Origin: a virus
Taxonomy: Duplodnaviria > Caudoviricetes
Length of the DNA stretch: 64,000 bases
IMG/VR virus record: IMGVR_UViG_3300045996_002689
Span: 484-64,483 of that record
Strand: one strand, 5' to 3'
Shown: positions 6,375-26,084 of the stretch, piece by piece
Layout: each line of letters starts with the position of its first letter
Numbering within the stretch: the first letter of the stretch is position 1
Notes under the pieces: model-generated
What the model saw: the letters and a program-made list of their open reading frames with translations, nothing else
The model's database searches: none
Told to the model about the DNA's origin: nothing
Position numbers and translations under genes: made by a program

Positions 6375-6683
6375 ATGAACCAGAACGAAGCGGACTACCT
6401 GTTGGGGTGGAACGACGCCCATGGTGAACTTTTCGCCAGGTCGCAGTTTTTGCTGAACGATAACTATATGCAGGGCTACAACGACGGCTGCGATGAGTTG
6501 ATCTACCAAGCGGGGTGGGACGCGGGCTATTGCGGCGAGGATGCCGACGAGTCATGTGTTTATCTGGACAAGTACATGCAGGGATACCAGGACGGGCGTG
6601 CCGAGAACCAGCGCGAAGAACAACAACACCTTAAGAAACTGGGGAGGATCACGGGCCATGCCAAAACCAGCCTACTATATTGA
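6375..6683 (+). CDS. hypothetical protein with four YxxG[WY]xx[GA] repeats
   Basis: YLLGWNDA, YMQGYNDG, YQAGWDAG, YMQGYQDG; CTAGGGG leader. Confidence 0.7.
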   Translation: MNQNEADYLLGWNDAHGELFARSQFLLNDNYMQGYNDGCDELIYQAGWDAGYCGEDADESCVYLDKYMQGYQDGRAENQREEQQHLKKLGRITGHAKTSLLY

Positions 6684-6990
6684 GGTTGACACCTACTGGC
6701 AAGATAGCCCTAGCTTTTTTGTGGGGCCATTTGCCAGCCGCCAGGAAGCAACCAACTGGCACGCAAGCGCACCCGAAGGCGCAAACCTGTGGTTGTCGAG
6801 TAGCATATGCGGGGGCGACATCAGGAGCGCATGGCGCGTCTATGCAAACGCCTTGAGCCAAACCGAGGCGCGCAAGCGTGGCCTAAAAGATGACTATGGG
6901 CATGGCTACAACATCCTGCCTGCCCACACAGAGCCAACCGCCGCCGCCTTGTCGGTCGCCAAGATGGAGCTATACGAGATATTAGGGTAG
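6658..6990 (+). CDS. hypothetical protein
   Basis: GGAGG RBS, ends just before a terminator. Confidence 0.65.
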   Translation: MPKPAYYIEVDTYWQDSPSFFVGPFASRQEATNWHASAPEGANLWLSSSICGGDIRSAWRVYANALSQTEARKRGLKDDYGHGYNILPAHTEPTAAALSVAKMELYEILG

Positions 6991-20459: not shown

Positions 20460-21080
20460 TCACTTTAGCTCGATAACGATTTGCCTGCCGGTCACTGTAA
20501 ATACAGGCGGTCGCTTGGCGCGTGACGGTTCGGGTTCTGGCGCAGGCGCGGGAGCCAAGGTCATGCCCTGGTTCCAGATGTAGATGGCCCTTCCTCTCGA
20601 CTCGGTAGCCGCTCCCTCCAGCCCGCACCGAAAACACTTGGCGTAGACCCCCTTCTTGAGATAGGGAGGGCTTCCGCCCGTGATCACAACCAGATCGGCT
20701 TCCGCCCCGCAGCGGTGGCATGGCACCAGGGCGGTGGCGACCTGCTCTGTGTCCACCTGAAAAACTCCCCGATTGTCGTCAAAGGTCACGAACCCATCCG
20801 GCTCTGCGGTGAACACGTTGTCCTGCACGCGCAAGTCGTCCCCGATCACGGTGCCCCAGGGCGTTGTGATGGTGCTGCCCCTGTAGCCGTATACGTAGCC
20901 GCCAAGAAGCGGCATAGCGGTCGAGGGATCAATCTGTATCTGTGGCACGGCGGTGTTTTCCTGTATCCTTGTGAGCGCCTCTCGAATCGCCTGCGCTTCC
21001 TCCTGTCTCTCCCTCTGCGCCTTGTTCCACCTCTCCCGTTCCCGCGCTTGTTGCGCCCACAGGCTGTCCTTGCGTCCCAC
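20460..21080 (-). CDS. protein with Lar-like (restriction alleviation) Zn ribbon
   Basis: PCHRCG...CFRCG...AIYIWN. Confidence 0.6.
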   Translation of the reverse strand: MGRKDSLWAQQARERERWNKAQRERQEEAQAIREALTRIQENTAVPQIQIDPSTAMPLLGGYVYGYRGSTITTPWGTVIGDDLRVQDNVFTAEPDGFVTFDDNRGVFQVDTEQVATALVPCHRCGAEADLVVITGGSPPYLKKGVYAKCFRCGLEGAATESRGRAIYIWNQGMTLAPAPAPEPEPSRAKRPPVFTVTGRQIVIELK

Positions 21081-21300
21081 GCGTTGTCCCCTTTCTGATC
21101 ACGTTGTACAGCACGTTGTTCTGGTCGCGGCGGCGCGTCACCTGCCAGCCGTCATGCTCCATCTGCGCGATGGCGTTGGTCACGGTGGTGGGCGACACGT
21201 TGTAGCTCTTCGCCAAGGCCGTTGCCGTAAACCAATTCAGGCGATTCTGGATGTCGCCAAAGAGCTTCTCCAGGTGGTCGCGCGTTGTAAGCCTGCTCAT
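20929..21300 (-). CDS. winged-helix HTH protein
   Basis: FTATALAKSYNVSPTTVTNAIAQMEHDGW. Confidence 0.7.
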   Translation of the reverse strand: MSRLTTRDHLEKLFGDIQNRLNWFTATALAKSYNVSPTTVTNAIAQMEHDGWQVTRRRDQNNVLYNVIRKGTTRGTQGQPVGATSAGTGEVEQGAEGETGGSAGDSRGAHKDTGKHRRATDTD

Positions 21301-21423
21301 GTGCGTTCCTTTCCGAGATTGCGCGTTGTTTACGCGTCACATTCTCGCACAAACTTGCTCTTTATGCAATGGGCAATTACAATGGGTTTGCGACCGATTC
21401 TACTACAACAAGGAGATTTCCAC

Positions 21424-21675
21424 ATGGCGACATCCGGCAAGAACTCGCGGGTAGTGGCGGAGCTAGAGCGATTTTTCAGCCCTGGCAACCCAGGGTACGG
21501 CAAGCAGTACACGGCGCTGGCTCTAGCGACACGCCTGCGCTTTAGCGAGAACAGCATCAGGGGCGCAATCACGGCGCTGACCAAGAAAGGATGGACGGAC
21601 ACAACCGACGACGATCCGGAGCTAGGCCGCTTCCACAGGTTGACGCCGCCGCTTGACAAGCGCGTAGCGGCATGA
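21424..21675 (+). CDS. winged-helix HTH protein
   Basis: YTALALATRLRFSENSIRGAITALTKKGW; AAGGAG RBS. Confidence 0.7.
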   Translation: MATSGKNSRVVAELERFFSPGNPGYGKQYTALALATRLRFSENSIRGAITALTKKGWTDTTDDDPELGRFHRLTPPLDKRVAA

Positions 21676-21927
21676 TACATTGAAGTCCCTAGTTCTTCTG
21701 TGTCTAGTCCCGCTCCTGTTGCGTCCTCAACAGAGGGCGGGACTTTGCTTTGGGAGGCGCTTATGATTGTCGAGGCAATCCGTTGGGTGCTGGAGATTCC
21801 CGTGAGCGAAGAGCGCATCGCCGCCATCAGGCTCTTTGCGGCGCTCTGTTTTGTGGCGGCGCTGACACTCATACTGCAAGAGATAGACGAAGATCGAAGG
21901 CTCTGACAAAACACAAACAATCGGCTA

Positions 21928-21956
21928 TTGACAGGAGCGCGCCCGCCTGCTATAAT
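21928..21956 (+). promoter_or_regulatory. consensus sigma70 promoter for the tRNA-like RNA
   Basis: Perfect TTGACA-17 nt-TATAAT. Confidence 0.85.
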
Positions 21957-21990
21957 CCCTGCAAGGTCGCTCGACCTTACACATAGATAC

Positions 21991-22063
21991 GGGTGGGTAG
22001 CTCAGTCGAGATCAGAGCATCCCCTTCGGAGGAAGGTCGGTGGTTCAAGTCCATCCCCGCCCA
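21991..22063 (+). ncRNA. tRNA-like RNA with anticodon loop replaced by a C(UUCG)G tetraloop
   Basis: Acceptor GGGTGGG/CCCGCCC, D arm GCTC/GAGC, T arm GGTGG-TTCAAGT-CCATC, variable loop AGGTC; 14-nt anticodon arm TCCCC-TTCG-GAGGA. Confidence 0.8.
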
Positions 22064-22091
22064 CAAGTACCCTGACAGGTACACGAAGTAC

Positions 22092-22136
22092 AAAGAGAGT
22101 GATGCTGGATTATTTCAGTATCGCTCTCTTTTTTTT
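22092..22136 (+). terminator. intrinsic terminator after the tRNA-like RNA
   Basis: AAAGAGAGTGATGCTG...CAGTATCGCTCTCTTT followed by a T run. Confidence 0.85.
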
Positions 22137-22141
22137 GCCCC

Positions 22142-22170
22142 TTGACAAAACAAATGAGTGCGTCTATAAT
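22142..22170 (+). promoter_or_regulatory. consensus sigma70 promoter
   Basis: Perfect TTGACA-17 nt-TATAAT. Confidence 0.85.
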
Positions 22171-22221
22171 GCCCGTAGTGCGTCGATTCCGACGCTTTGT
22201 AACGCACAGAAAGGAAAGCGC

Positions 22222-22590
22222 ATGGCAAACCTAATCAACCTCAGTCCCCACCCCGCCTTTGTTTTTATCAACAGCTTTCTCACCAGCATGATCGGGCACC
22301 CCTGTGAGTGCAGGAGTTGCGCGCAGAACCGCGAGAGCGCCTTTGGCGCACAGGTGTGGCTCTACTCGGTGGCGACCAAGATTCCCCAGGTAAAGGGACT
22401 TGCCGACATGGTGGAAGGGCAGGCAGAGATCGCCGTGCCCATGCCCCCACCCGTTGTCGAGACGCCCGAAGAGGTGATCCGCTTGGTCGAGGGGCAACTG
22501 GCGCGCGGCTTTGTCAAGGGGGCGCAACTGGCGGTCATATCGGGCTGGTTGGAGTCGGTTAAGGCTCTGTCGGGCTACGGGGAGGGCTGA
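22222..22590 (+). CDS. hypothetical protein
   Basis: AAGGA RBS; CECRSC motif. Confidence 0.65.
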   Translation: MANLINLSPHPAFVFINSFLTSMIGHPCECRSCAQNRESAFGAQVWLYSVATKIPQVKGLADMVEGQAEIAVPMPPPVVETPEEVIRLVEGQLARGFVKGAQLAVISGWLESVKALSGYGEG

Positions 22591-25133: not shown

Positions 25134-25165
25134 AAAGAGGGGAGAAAATCTCTCCCCTCTTTTTT
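25134..25165. terminator. terminator between convergent genes
   Basis: AAAGAGGGGAGA-AAATC-TCTCCCCTCTTTTTT. Confidence 0.8.
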
Positions 25166-26018
25166 ATTGGAGCCAGTCCACGCTGGGCAACTCGGCGCGC
25201 TTTACATAACGTTGGGTGGTGACAATCGAGGCGTGCCCCAGAACCGCCTGCGCCTCTACGATGTTGCCCTCCGCCAGCTTGGTCGCCACATAGCGGCGGA
25301 AGTCGTGGGGCGATGCGTCTATGCCCATCTTGCGGGCCGCTTCCACCACGACATTGTATGCGCCCTGGGTGGTGATGGGTTTGTCGACGGCGCGCATGCT
25401 GCGTCCTGCAAAGCTGTTGAAGAGCCAGGCGCTTGCGATCTCGCGCGCAAAAAGCCAGGCGGTCAAATTAACCTCCGTGACCTGGGCGACCGGTACCGCC
25501 CGCGGGCGAATGTCGGTTTTTCCCTGCACGTAGATCACACGCTCAGGGATGCGCCACTGGTCGCCGCGTAGTCCACACAATTCTTCAATGCGCACACCCG
25601 ATGTCGCAAGCAGACACAGCATCGCCTTATCGCGTAAACCCTTGGGGGTAGAAGTGTCGATGTTGTCGATGATCTCCTGCACGGCGATGTCGTCAAGCGG
25701 CACATTGCCCTTGCGCAGCCTGTCGCGCAGCGCGCGCACGCTCACCGAAGCAATGGCGCGCACCTGCGTGTAAAGCTCCACAGAAACGCTGCCAGCGGCC
25801 ACAGAAGCCGCAAAGATGCTCTTGATGGCAGATAGGGCGCTGTTGATGGTATTGGGGCTGTAGCGGGCTTCCACAAGGCTTGTGCGCCACGCCAGCACGC
25901 TCCCCGAACTCCACAGCGGCAAGTTGCTACTTACGCAGAAGTCCTCGTACTCGCGCCACGCCTTCTCATAGAGCGTAAGCGTCCTCTCCGAAACGGTGCC
26001 AAGCAACAGTTCTCTCAT
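25164..26018 (-). CDS. tyrosine recombinase (XerC/D-like)
   Basis: Catalytic set SGVRIEE (R), GKT (K), HDFRR, LGH, TQRY; SAM-like N-domain; start at MRELLLG after GGAACTAGGG. Confidence 0.9.
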   Translation of the reverse strand: MRELLLGTVSERTLTLYEKAWREYEDFCVSSNLPLWSSGSVLAWRTSLVEARYSPNTINSALSAIKSIFAASVAAGSVSVELYTQVRAIASVSVRALRDRLRKGNVPLDDIAVQEIIDNIDTSTPKGLRDKAMLCLLATSGVRIEELCGLRGDQWRIPERVIYVQGKTDIRPRAVPVAQVTEVNLTAWLFAREIASAWLFNSFAGRSMRAVDKPITTQGAYNVVVEAARKMGIDASPHDFRRYVATKLAEGNIVEAQAVLGHASIVTTQRYVKRAELPSVDWLQ

Positions 26019-26056
26019 CCCTAGTTCCTTTCTGTGTATCAATAACTGATACATGA

Positions 26057-26084
26057 AGTATATCACATGCACGCCCCTTGTCAA
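26057..26084 (-). promoter_or_regulatory. sigma70-type promoter for the recombinase
   Basis: minus strand TTGACA-16 nt-TATACT. Confidence 0.65.

What the first reader, a model, noticed from the sequence alone, without database searches (positions are those of the whole stretch)
21928..22136. Stand-alone transcribed tRNA mimic with a UUCG tetraloop in place of the anticodon
Seen: a perfect TTGACA-17-TATAAT promoter, a leader hairpin (AAGGTC-GCTC-GACCTT), a cloverleaf with intact acceptor, D and T arms, and a strong terminator. The anticodon arm is 14 nt (TCCCC-TTCG-GAGGA) instead of 17, the D loop lacks GG, and no CCA is encoded. Established: C(UUCG)G is an extra-stable tetraloop, and anticodon nucleases (PrrC, VapC, PARIS AriB) are anti-phage effectors. 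Inference: precise capping with intact expression signals argues for selection rather than decay. It could be an uncleavable decoy for tRNA-targeting defences or toxins, or a ligand for synthetases or RelA.
Basis: partly seen in the sequence, partly recalled or inferred. Interest (0 to 1): 0.82.

Follow-up and report, generated by a model that had tools for sequence, protein, structure and literature searches.

The report
Phage tRNA-Arg-like gene, shortened anticodon stem
A soil phage carries one stand-alone, strongly promoted gene for a tRNA-shaped RNA whose body is intact but whose anticodon stem is too short, so it probably no longer reads codons and may act as a tRNA look-alike, though simple decay is not excluded.

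Summary
The sequence features are real. There is a perfect sigma-70 promoter, one of only two in the 64-kb phage. It is followed by a leader hairpin, a cloverleaf (Rfam tRNA 46.2 bits, the only RNA-family hit in the window), no encoded CCA and a strong terminator. A contig from a second, separate soil metagenome study is identical, so the short arm is not an assembly error.

The "UUCG tetraloop replacing the anticodon" reading is over-stated:
- CUUCGGA is exactly the anticodon loop of three canonical phage tRNA-Arg(UCG) genes, and ARAGORN calls tRNA-Arg(UCG).
- Only one pair closes the UUCG before a C·A mismatch.
- The predicted minimum-energy fold uses a different hairpin.

What is abnormal is a stem region 2-3 nt too short.

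CGA is the phage's rarest Arg codon. The GG-less D loop recurs in three distinct relatives, and two of those also have non-canonical anticodon arms. Separately, a gut-phage family keeps tRNA look-alikes with 3-4-nt "anticodon" loops in 75 of 80 loci, with compensatory stem changes. This scan has noted similar RNAs on other DNA.

My best reading is a non-decoding tRNA-body mimic (0.4). The rivals are a decaying tRNA-Arg gene, a still-working atypical tRNA-Arg, and a processing handle. No RNA data exist and the decoy role is untested.

The parts
21928..21956 (+). Consensus sigma-70 promoter TTGACA-17-TATAAT with an extended -10 TG. The likely transcription start is about 21962-21964.
   Evidence: 12 of 12 matches with TG. 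One of 2 perfect matches in the window, against 0 in 100 shuffles. The start site is inferred from spacing.
21963..21978 (+). 5' leader hairpin AAGGUC-GCUC-GACCUU, followed by a 12-nt spacer before the tRNA 5' end.
   Evidence: Folds at -7.0 kcal/mol, z -1.24. Kept in the fold of the whole transcript.
21991..22063 (+). 73-nt tRNA-shaped RNA. Acceptor 21991-21997 with 22056-22062; D arm 22000-22018 (loop AGUCGAGAUCA, no GG); T arm 22039-22055; discriminator A at 22063; no CCA.
   Evidence: ARAGORN calls tRNA-Arg(tcg). Rfam RF00005 scores 46.2 bits. Sequence read.
22020..22038 (+). Aberrant anticodon region. It holds a 14-nt arm UCCCC-UUCG-GAGGA (22020-22033) that contains the Arg-type heptamer CUUCGGA (22024-22030), followed by AGGUC (22034-38). 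It is 2-3 nt shorter than canonical, and three competing pairings are possible.
   Evidence: The Rfam alignment deletes one position on each stem strand and one loop base, and flags a non-standard pair. Comparison with canonical tRNA-Arg(UCG) loops is.
22067..22082 (+). 3' trailer hairpin GUACC-CUGACA-GGUAC.
22092..22136 (+). Intrinsic terminator: an 18-pair stem with a 4-nt loop, then a U run.
   Evidence: The trailer folds at -34.1 kcal/mol, z -7.76, and 0 of 200 shuffles fold as well.

Best explanation
The locus is a self-contained transcription unit for a 73-nt tRNA-shaped RNA that descends from a tRNA-Arg(UCG)-type gene but most likely no longer decodes.

Shown from sequence:
- A consensus promoter, a ~28-nt leader, an intact acceptor, D and T framework, the Arg-type loop heptamer CUUCGGA on a stem region 2-3 nt too short, no CCA, a trailer hairpin and a strong terminator.

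Inferred:
- Host RNA polymerase makes a ~175-nt primary transcript early in infection or from the prophage.
- RNase P cuts at G21991, and the 3' end is trimmed and given CCA.
- The stable product works through its tRNA body (acceptor and T-arm stack, elbow, possibly the exposed Arg loop). It would occupy a host or defence protein that binds tRNA, rather than deliver arginine on the ribosome.

The partner is unknown. A decoy or sponge role is my preferred guess for a stand-alone, very strongly promoted unit.
For: 1. Expression signals are as good as they can be, and the promoter is one of only two perfect ones in the phage. The terminator is perfect.
2. All departures from a tRNA sit in the anticodon stem region. 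The acceptor is 7/7, the D stem 4/4, the T stem 5/5 and the T loop is canonical.
3. The allele is identical in a second study's assembly, which differs from the window at two nearby bases (C>T at 21400 and 21409). So it is shared by two slightly different strains.
4. There is no codon-usage reason for a tRNA-Arg(UCG): CGA is 31 of 12,599 codons counted, 4.0% of Arg, and CGG is 8.0%.
5. The GG-less D loop recurs in 3 other distinct tRNA-type genes, found by searches that did not fix arm length. L206 has a 19-nt arm with a 9-nt loop. L210 has a 22-nt arm capped by cUUCGg. L212 and L214 (one sequence) are canonical with anticodon CAU. Counting ours, 3 of 4 are non-canonical, and the acceptor and T stems differ by compensating changes.
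6. Non-decoding tRNA look-alikes are a real, selected kind in phages.
   - 41 of 88 unique hits of a short-arm pattern have an intact 4-6-bp stem with a 3-5-nt loop.
   - In one gut-phage family sampled through a neighbouring protein, 75 of 80 loci carry at least one copy with a 5-bp stem and a 3-4-nt loop.
   - In an 8-sequence alignment of that family, 4 of 5 mini-stem pairs change on both sides and 100% of cells are paired.
   - 14 of 36 CUUCGG-pattern loci have at least 5 pairs closing a UUCG cap.
Against: - No RNA run holds the locus, so expression and processing are not shown.
- No syntenic relative of this phage was found, so there is no covariation for this arm. The terminase relatives reach 60% identity at most and lack the element, and no relatives of the integrase or the downstream ORF were found.
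- Our arm does not look like the clean capped hairpins of the comparison class. Only 1 pair closes the UUCG, against at least 5 in those 14 loci.
- The intact heptaloop CUUCGGA and ARAGORN's call fit a tRNA-Arg that is merely damaged or atypical.
- The missing bases lie in C and G runs, where slippage is common (inference).
- The two strains sharing the allele are nearly identical, so the deletion could be recent.
- The 8-sequence covariation set was chosen for paired stems, and model R1 was built from short-arm sequences, which biases both.
- The lineage argument rests on only 4 distinct sequences.
Confidence: 0.4

Rival explanations
1. Decaying gene. A once-functional phage tRNA-Arg(UCG) lost bases from its anticodon stem, probably by slippage in the C run and the G run. 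It is now a neutral remnant whose promoter and terminator have not yet eroded.
For: - The loop heptamer CUUCGGA is identical to that of the 3 canonical phage tRNA-Arg(UCG) genes.
- A hypothetical UCCCC/GGGGA arm would give our sequence by losing one C and two G (inference).
- There is a C·A mismatch in the capped reading.
- The element is absent from the nearest phages found.
- The two metagenome copies are almost the same strain.
Against: - Every other constrained position of a 210-bp unit is intact: the 12/12 promoter with TG, an 18-pair terminator and all three other helices.
- If two independent indels fell at random in 73 nt, both would land in the 17-nt arm with chance about 0.05. That is my arithmetic, and homopolymer runs weaken it.
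- Relatives with the same D loop also have non-canonical arms.
Confidence: 0.25
2. Working but atypical tRNA-Arg(UCG). The 7-nt loop CUUCGGA sits on a 4-position stem (U-A, C·A, C-G, C-G) with a 4-nt variable loop GGUC. The RNA is charged by ArgRS and decodes CGA/CGG. One possible purpose is to replace a host tRNA-Arg gene broken by integration, as in tRNA-dependent lysogeny.
For: - ARAGORN calls tRNA-Arg(tcg).
- The Arg-type loop is intact.
- The phage has a tyrosine integrase (PF00589, 86.9 bits) and this single tRNA-type gene with its own promoter and terminator. That is the layout described for tRNA-dependent lysogeny (abstract of PMC10865867).
Against: - ARAGORN's pairing is less stable than leaving the arm open (-20.8 against -22.5 kcal/mol).
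- The Rfam model needs three deletions and flags a non-standard pair.
- G19 of the D loop is missing.
- CGA and CGG are rare in the phage.
- No host tRNA or attB could be found.
Confidence: 0.18
3. Processing handle. The tRNA shape is only a signal for RNase P and 3' tRNA-trimming enzymes. These would release or destabilise flanking RNA: the hairpin-ended upstream early message that reads through from 21653, or the ~72-nt trailer, which resembles a terminator-ended small RNA.
For: - No terminator lies between the upstream ORF (ends 21906) and the tRNA shape, so upstream transcripts would run into it.
- A hairpin lies just upstream of the 5' end here and in the gut-phage family (AGCCCGG..CCGGGC, 4-5 nt before the 5' end). 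In that family, copies sit between early genes.
- The anticodon arm is dispensable for RNase P (recalled knowledge).
Against: - The unit has its own very strong promoter and contains no ORF, so most transcripts hold nothing to be punctuated.
- No extended complementarity of the leader, trailer or body to the phage genome beyond chance-level 10-12-mers.
Confidence: 0.1
4. Attachment site. The tRNA-like sequence is, or contains, attP for the tyrosine integrase 3.1 kb away.
For: An integrase is present. Many integrases use tRNA genes (recalled knowledge).
Against: - The 25-mer spanning the T arm and 3' acceptor strand has 0 matches in one genome each of 185,579 species.
- An attP needs neither the 5' half of a tRNA nor a consensus promoter and terminator.
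- The site is not adjacent to int.
Confidence: 0.03

Closest known systems
Canonical phage-encoded tRNA-Arg(UCG) (Rfam RF00005). Examples are L310, L311 and L312.
   Same: Cloverleaf body, T loop, AGGUC-type variable region and the identical anticodon-loop heptamer CUUCGGA. ARAGORN gives the same name.
   Different: Ours has 20 nt between the D and T stems instead of 22-23. The anticodon stem has at most 3-4 pairs with a C·A mismatch. The D loop lacks GG. The gene is solitary with a private consensus promoter and terminator.
Phage tRNA look-alikes with a sealed or miniature anticodon arm. These were seen here in IMG/VR contigs and noted before by this scan. I found no paper on them in 7 full-text searches.
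   Same: Intact acceptor, D and T framework with a non-decoding arm. They are often solitary or in early regions of temperate phages, with flanking hairpins.
   Different: Those arms are clean helices (4-9 pairs) capped by 3-5-nt loops, or they carry long insertions, and they covary. Ours has a mismatch next to the cap, keeps a full Arg heptaloop and has no syntenic relatives.
Phage tRNAs that replace or outlast host tRNAs cut by defence nucleases. Sources: van den Berg et al., eLife 2023, PMC10264068 (abstract, and a term search of the text); the PARIS and retron papers (search listing only).
   Same: A phage-borne tRNA-type gene proposed to act in the conflict over host tRNAs.
   Different: Those are functional decoding tRNAs with point changes in a normal 7-nt loop. 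The terms decoy, truncat, deletion and tRNA-like do not occur in PMC10264068.
tRNA-dependent lysogeny (Guerrero-Bustamante and Hatfull, mBio 2024, PMC10865867; abstract read).
   Same: A temperate phage with a tyrosine integrase and a phage tRNA gene expressed in the lysogen.
   Different: That system requires a functional tRNA of the isotype broken at attB. Here function is doubtful and attB is unknown.
Irregular tRNAs and tRNA-like small RNAs of soil bacteria, and tRNA-Other of Bacillus cereus (Mukai et al., NAR 2017, PMC5389517; passages read).
   Same: [quoted passage not shown]
   Different: Those have 8/4 or 9/3 acceptor/T geometry or other irregularities, and they sit in bacterial loci next to toxin-antitoxin genes. 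Ours has 7/5 geometry and is phage-borne.
RNase P-processed tRNA-like RNAs: P1/P7 C4 and P4 CI immunity RNAs, mascRNA, YrlA, and the tmRNA tRNA-like domain. All are recalled from memory, not from a call.
   Same: Non-decoding RNAs that borrow the tRNA acceptor and T-arm shape for processing or protein binding. C4 and CI lie in phage immunity regions, as this unit does.
   Different: No Rfam family other than tRNA matches the window at E up to 0.1. ARAGORN finds no tmRNA. Ours keeps a full four-arm cloverleaf.

Membership tests
tRNA (Rfam RF00005) | Covariance-model score at or above the gathering score of 29 bits | tested here: met
   46.2 bits, model positions 1-71 of 71. It was missed by the fast filters of the gathering-mode scan of the whole window.
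tRNA (Rfam RF00005) | 5-bp anticodon stem with a 7-nt loop (17-nt arm) | tested here: not met
   The model alignment deletes one position on each stem strand and one loop base, and marks a non-standard pair. ARAGORN's 7-nt-loop pairing has 2 mismatched positions of 5 and scores -20.8 kcal/mol, against -22.5 with the arm open.
tRNA (Rfam RF00005) | G18-G19 in the D loop to dock on the T loop | tested here: not met
   The D loop is AGUCGAGAUCA. The same GG-less loop occurs in L206, L210 and the otherwise canonical L212.
tRNA (Rfam RF00005) | 7-bp acceptor stem, 5-bp T stem and T loop UUCRANY | tested here: met
   GGGUGGG/CCCGCCC with one U·G pair; GGUGG/CCAUC with one G·U pair; loop UUCAAGU.
tRNA (Rfam RF00005) | Aminoacylation and decoding | not testable with these tools
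   No RNA or biochemical data. Codon use gives no need for it.
Phage tRNA look-alikes with a UUCG-sealed anticodon arm | A continuous helix (5 or more pairs) closing C(UUCG)G | tested here: not met
   1 consecutive pair here, against 5-8 in 14 of 36 pattern hits.
Phage tRNA look-alikes with a non-decoding arm (broad sense) | Non-canonical arm kept across relatives while the body covaries | tested here: inconclusive
   3 of the 4 distinct sequences with this D loop are non-canonical. No syntenic relatives exist to test this particular arm.
tRNA-dependent lysogeny tRNA | Tyrosine integrase plus a phage tRNA of the isotype disrupted at attB | tested here: inconclusive
   Integrase is present. The host, attB and tRNA function are unknown.
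attP overlapping a tRNA gene | The 3' part is identical to a host tRNA gene | tested here: not met
   0 exact matches of the 25-mer in the genome collection. The host may simply not be represented.
Other tRNA-like RNA families (C4, YrlA, tmRNA) | Match to the family model | tested here: not met
   Only RF00005 matches the window at E up to 0.1. ARAGORN finds no tmRNA.

The most novel reading that the evidence does not exclude
The RNA is one member of a widespread, so far undescribed kind of phage product: tRNA bodies stripped of decoding ability. They would be made in bulk early in infection or from the prophage to occupy a tRNA-binding immune nuclease, toxin or host enzyme. Here the bait would still display an Arg-type loop on a body that the ribosome cannot use.
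Probability: 0.15. Interest if true: 0.8.

Novelty: new variant of a known kind. Interest (0 to 1): 0.45.

Why it matters
Phage tRNA genes are currently explained by codon supply, by escape from tRNA-cutting defences and by tRNA-dependent lysogeny. All three need a decoding tRNA.

A phage that spends one of its two best promoters on a tRNA shape that probably cannot decode points to a fourth use of the tRNA fold. The comparison sets found here support this: 75 of 80 loci in one family, and UUCG-sealed arms in 14 of 36 pattern hits. They show that such look-alikes are kept by selection in other phages.

This locus is a compact test case of about 210 bp with its own promoter and terminator. It could be moved into a laboratory strain as it stands.

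If it turns out to be a decaying gene, it is ordinary.

Tried and rejected
- RNA evidence: no RNA holder was listed for the locus. All four runs laid were DNA contigs, so nothing can be said on expression, ends or CCA.
- Close relatives:
  - blastn against 50,697 phage records gave 6 records, all generic tRNA similarity covering at most 32% of the query.
  - Exact or gapped patterns of the D and T arms gave 0 hits in viral contigs.
  - 80 terminase-related loci (45-60% identity) hold no similar element. The best blastn-short match was 13 nt, and ARAGORN found 4 ordinary tRNAs in 3 loci.
  - The downstream 122-aa ORF has no homologue other than itself.
  - The integrase has no close relative in viral contigs.
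  - tblastx of the window against the loci that share the D loop found nothing.
It appeared as a Logan contig.
- Host: the 25-mer of the T arm and acceptor has 0 matches in the genome collection. The same acceptor stem occurs in Planctomycetota tRNA-Phe (4 loci) and in Spirochaeta and Chloroflexota tRNA-Val (2 loci), which does not name a host. The terminase is at most 47.5% identical to that of isolated phages of many phyla.
- Antisense idea: complementarity of the leader, trailer and body to the phage genome is at chance level, with 10-12-mers only.
- L206's downstream ORF reminded me of a peptidyl-tRNA hydrolase. Pfam gave no hit at E up to 0.01, so I dropped the idea.
- The weak Rfam hits RT-17 (E 0.54), STnc290 and two miRNA families are chance-level.
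- Pfam and PHROGs on 50 window ORFs found no tRNA-related enzyme such as a ligase, CCA-adding enzyme or synthetase. Not all ORFs were scanned.
- Literature: 7 full-text searches found no paper on phage tRNA-like genes with truncated or sealed anticodon arms. Supplements were not seen, and subscription journals are largely outside the library.
At least 5 of its 88 unique hits are ordinary tRNAs matched through a repeated AGAGC. No frequency relative to normal phage tRNAs could be computed.
Full report
**What the window is.** The window is bases 484-64483 of a 64,483-bp IMG/VR virus record rated 100% complete.
- It encodes a large terminase, a major head protein, an M23 peptidase, a DnaB-type helicase and a Dam methylase.
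- It also encodes a tyrosine integrase (25164-26084, minus strand, PF00589 at 86.9 bits) and a MarR-type winged-helix protein (20929-21300, minus strand).
- The finding lies in the early/lysogeny region, between divergently oriented small regulator-like ORFs and the integrase.
- The same DNA occurs in four soil or rhizosphere metagenome runs from four studies.

- Promoter: TTGACA-17-TATAAT with TG before the -10 at 21928-21956. The perfect consensus occurs only twice in 64 kb, at 21928 and at 22142 just after the unit's terminator. It occurred 0 times in 100 shuffles.
- Leader hairpin: 21963-21978, weak on its own (z -1.24).
- Cloverleaf: 21991-22063. It is the only ARAGORN gene and the only Rfam match in the window at E up to 0.1 (46.2 bits, gathering score 29). 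The gathering-mode scan of the whole window missed it.
- Body: acceptor, D and T stems are fully paired and the T loop is UUCAAGU. The D loop AGUCGAGAUCA lacks GG. A73 is followed by CAA, not CCA.
- Terminator: an 18-pair stem plus a U run. None of 200 shuffles of the trailer fold as well.
- The whole ~177-nt predicted transcript folds as four separate modules (z -5.67).

**It is not an assembly artefact.** A 444-nt contig from a different study (X2) covers 21689-22132 with no difference and no gap. That strain differs from the window at 21400 and 21409.

- Written as UCCCC-UUCG-GAGGA, the arm has a C·A mismatch next to the closing pair. Only one consecutive pair closes the UUCG.
- A scan of viral contigs for CUUCGG in a tRNA frame returned 36 loci:
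  - 16 were ordinary tRNA-Pro(CGG).
  - 3 were ordinary tRNA-Arg(UCG) whose loop is exactly CUUCGGA, the heptamer present here at 22024-22030.
  - 3 had no ARAGORN call.
  - 14 (10 distinct sequences) were true UUCG-capped helices with 5-8 closing pairs.
- So "UUCG" here is just as well U33 plus the anticodon UCG, flanked by C32, G37 and A38. ARAGORN reads it that way.
- The abnormal feature is the stem. There are 20 nt between the D and T stems, where 22-23 are expected.
- Three pairings compete:
  - the capped form, -25.4 kcal/mol;
  - ARAGORN's 7-nt loop on a stem with two mismatches, -20.8, which is worse than leaving the arm open at -22.5;
  - the minimum-energy form CCUUC-GGAG-GAAGG, -29.9, which uses part of the variable region.
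- The Rfam model handles the region with three deletions and a flagged non-standard pair.

**Is it a codon-supply tRNA?** Over 27 ORFs (12,599 codons), CGA is the rarest Arg codon (31 codons, 4.0% of Arg) and CGG is 8.0%. Codon use gives no reason to carry tRNA-Arg(UCG).

**Relatives.** No syntenic relative of the phage was found. The unusual D arm is shared, however.
- A 19-mer of the D arm hit 7 metagenome loci. One of them (L206) is a tRNA-type gene scoring 47.4 bits, with a 19-nt arm and a 9-nt loop, U73 and an encoded CCA.
- A looser D-loop pattern hit 6 viral loci. Three are tRNA-type:
  - L210, in a 416-kb phage contig, has D loop AGUCGAGAUCCA and a 22-nt arm ending in a cUUCGg cap.
  - L212 and L214 are one sequence, with D loop AGUCGAGACA and a canonical arm with anticodon CAU.
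- These searches did not fix arm length.
- In the four-way alignment the D arm, AGGUC and the T loop are nearly invariant, while the acceptor and T stems differ by compensating changes.
- Counting ours, three of the four distinct sequences have a non-canonical arm. This is a small sample. It does link the GG-less D loop with arms that cannot decode, and it shows that the D loop is a lineage trait, not decay.

**A wider comparison class.**
These gave 88 unique sequences:
  - 41 have an intact 4-6-bp stem capped by a 3-5-nt loop, usually with a fully paired acceptor and T stem.
  - At least 5 are ordinary tRNAs matched by accident.
- Eleven of these loci share neighbouring genes, including a small conserved protein and recombination genes.
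- In an 8-sequence alignment from this gut-phage group, the 5-bp mini-stem is 100% paired and 4 of 5 pairs change on both sides. That set was chosen for paired stems.
- To remove that bias, I re-sampled the family through the neighbouring 95-aa protein, which gave 80 loci. I then searched them with a covariance model.
  - 75 of the 80 loci carry at least one copy with a 5-bp stem and a 3-4-nt loop, and 36 carry two.
  - 4 of the other 5 carry a version with a long insertion in the arm, and 1 is cut by the locus end.
  - The only canonical 17-nt arm belongs to a neighbouring ordinary tRNA.
  - The model was built from short-arm sequences, which favours them.
- These copies are bracketed by conserved hairpins.
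- Non-decoding tRNA look-alikes are therefore a selected kind of phage RNA. This scan's earlier notes describe similar cases on other DNA. I treated those notes as leads only.

**How the locus most likely works.**
- Everything needed to make and mature a tRNA-shaped RNA is intact, and everything needed to decode is doubtful.
- My preferred reading (0.4) is a non-decoding tRNA-body mimic derived from a tRNA-Arg(UCG)-type gene. It would be transcribed as its own unit, cut by RNase P at G21991, trimmed and given CCA, and it would act by occupying a tRNA-binding protein.
- All steps after transcription-signal recognition are inferred.
- The rivals are:
  - a decaying gene (0.25), because the missing bases lie in C and G runs and the Arg loop is untouched;
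  - an atypical but working tRNA-Arg (0.18), for instance in the tRNA-dependent-lysogeny layout of integrase plus a single phage tRNA (abstract of PMC10865867);
  - a processing handle for flanking RNA (0.1), since no terminator separates the upstream ORF from the tRNA shape;
  - an attachment site (0.03), with no host match.

**What is known.**
- Seven full-text searches found no description of phage tRNA-type genes with truncated or sealed anticodon arms.
- The paper on phage tRNAs evading anticodon nucleases concerns decoding tRNAs with loop point mutations. It does not use the words decoy, truncation or tRNA-like.
- Irregular, possibly non-translational tRNAs of soil Acidobacteria, and tRNA-Other of Bacillus cereus, are the nearest bacterial parallels I read about (passages of PMC5389517).
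- C4/CI immunity RNAs, mascRNA, YrlA and 3' external-spacer small RNAs are recalled analogies. No Rfam model other than tRNA matches.

**Verdict.** This is a real, cleanly built, probably expressed tRNA-Arg-derived gene with a defective anticodon stem. The tetraloop-decoy story is not shown, and part of its premise (precise capping) fails. The idea of a non-decoding tRNA look-alike remains the best single reading. It is supported mainly by the intact surroundings, by relatives sharing the D loop, and by a clearly selected comparison class in other phages.

Noticed in passing
L216-L295 (about 290 nt downstream of the conserved 95-aa ORF, e.g. L216:3026-3099); also L093, L094, L099, L111, L137, L166, L191: A family of temperate gut-type phages keeps one or two 73-74-nt tRNA look-alikes whose 'anticodon arm' is a 5-bp stem with a 3-4-nt loop. 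This holds in 75 of 80 loci, with compensatory stem changes. The copies are bracketed by conserved hairpins and sit between regulator-like and recombination genes. One Bacteroides phage record is among the 19 phage-database matches.
   Followed up: partly
L275:3033-3175; L241:3117-3236; L253:3148-3267; L253:2977-3061: In the same family some copies carry 26- to 83-nt insertions exactly where the mini-loop sits. The arm therefore tolerates large inserts while the body is kept.
   Followed up: no
L210:6440-6770 (416-kb phage contig): An array of irregular tRNA-type genes. One has a 22-nt UUCG-capped anticodon arm (6525-6608). One has a UUCG-capped hairpin inserted in its D loop (about 6672-6770). 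One has a long arm with a UCGG loop (6442-6522). They share repeated trailer sequences.
   Followed up: partly
L296, L298/L322, L299, L300/L305/L316/L323, L303, L318, L320, L328, L330: Ten distinct phage tRNA-type genes, counting L210, whose anticodon arm is a continuous 5-8-pair helix closed by C(UUCG)G. Arm lengths run from 16 to 22 nt. Several are solitary on their contig stretch.
   Followed up: partly
window 22142-22221: The second perfect TTGACA-17-TATAAT sits 6 nt after the terminator's U run. It drives a structured 5' UTR and a 122-aa ORF (22222-22587) with no homologue among 5.8 billion proteins. The weak RT-17 match (E 0.54) there is chance-level.
   Followed up: partly
window 20929-21675: Divergent winged-helix-type ORFs: a MarR-like one on the minus strand at 20929-21300, and an 83-aa ORF without a Pfam hit on the plus strand at 21424-21675. 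Together with a near-consensus promoter at 21653, they look like a lysogeny switch just upstream of the tRNA-like unit.
   Followed up: no
window 20460-21080 (minus strand): A 206-aa ORF with a sub-threshold match to the Lar restriction-alleviation domain (23.2 bits against a cut-off of 28.6).
   Followed up: no
window 1-64000 (method note): The gathering-threshold Rfam scan of the whole window returned nothing, although the tRNA model scores 46.2 bits here. The fast filters dropped it. Irregular tRNA-type genes can therefore be missed by default scans.
   Followed up: yes
L133:2670-2897 and L133:6645-6714 (332-kb phage contig): A permuted tmRNA (69.6 bits) lies near a tRNA array. The array includes a GG-less, 5-nt-loop tRNA-type gene with an acceptor stem resembling ours and an encoded CCA.
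   Followed up: no
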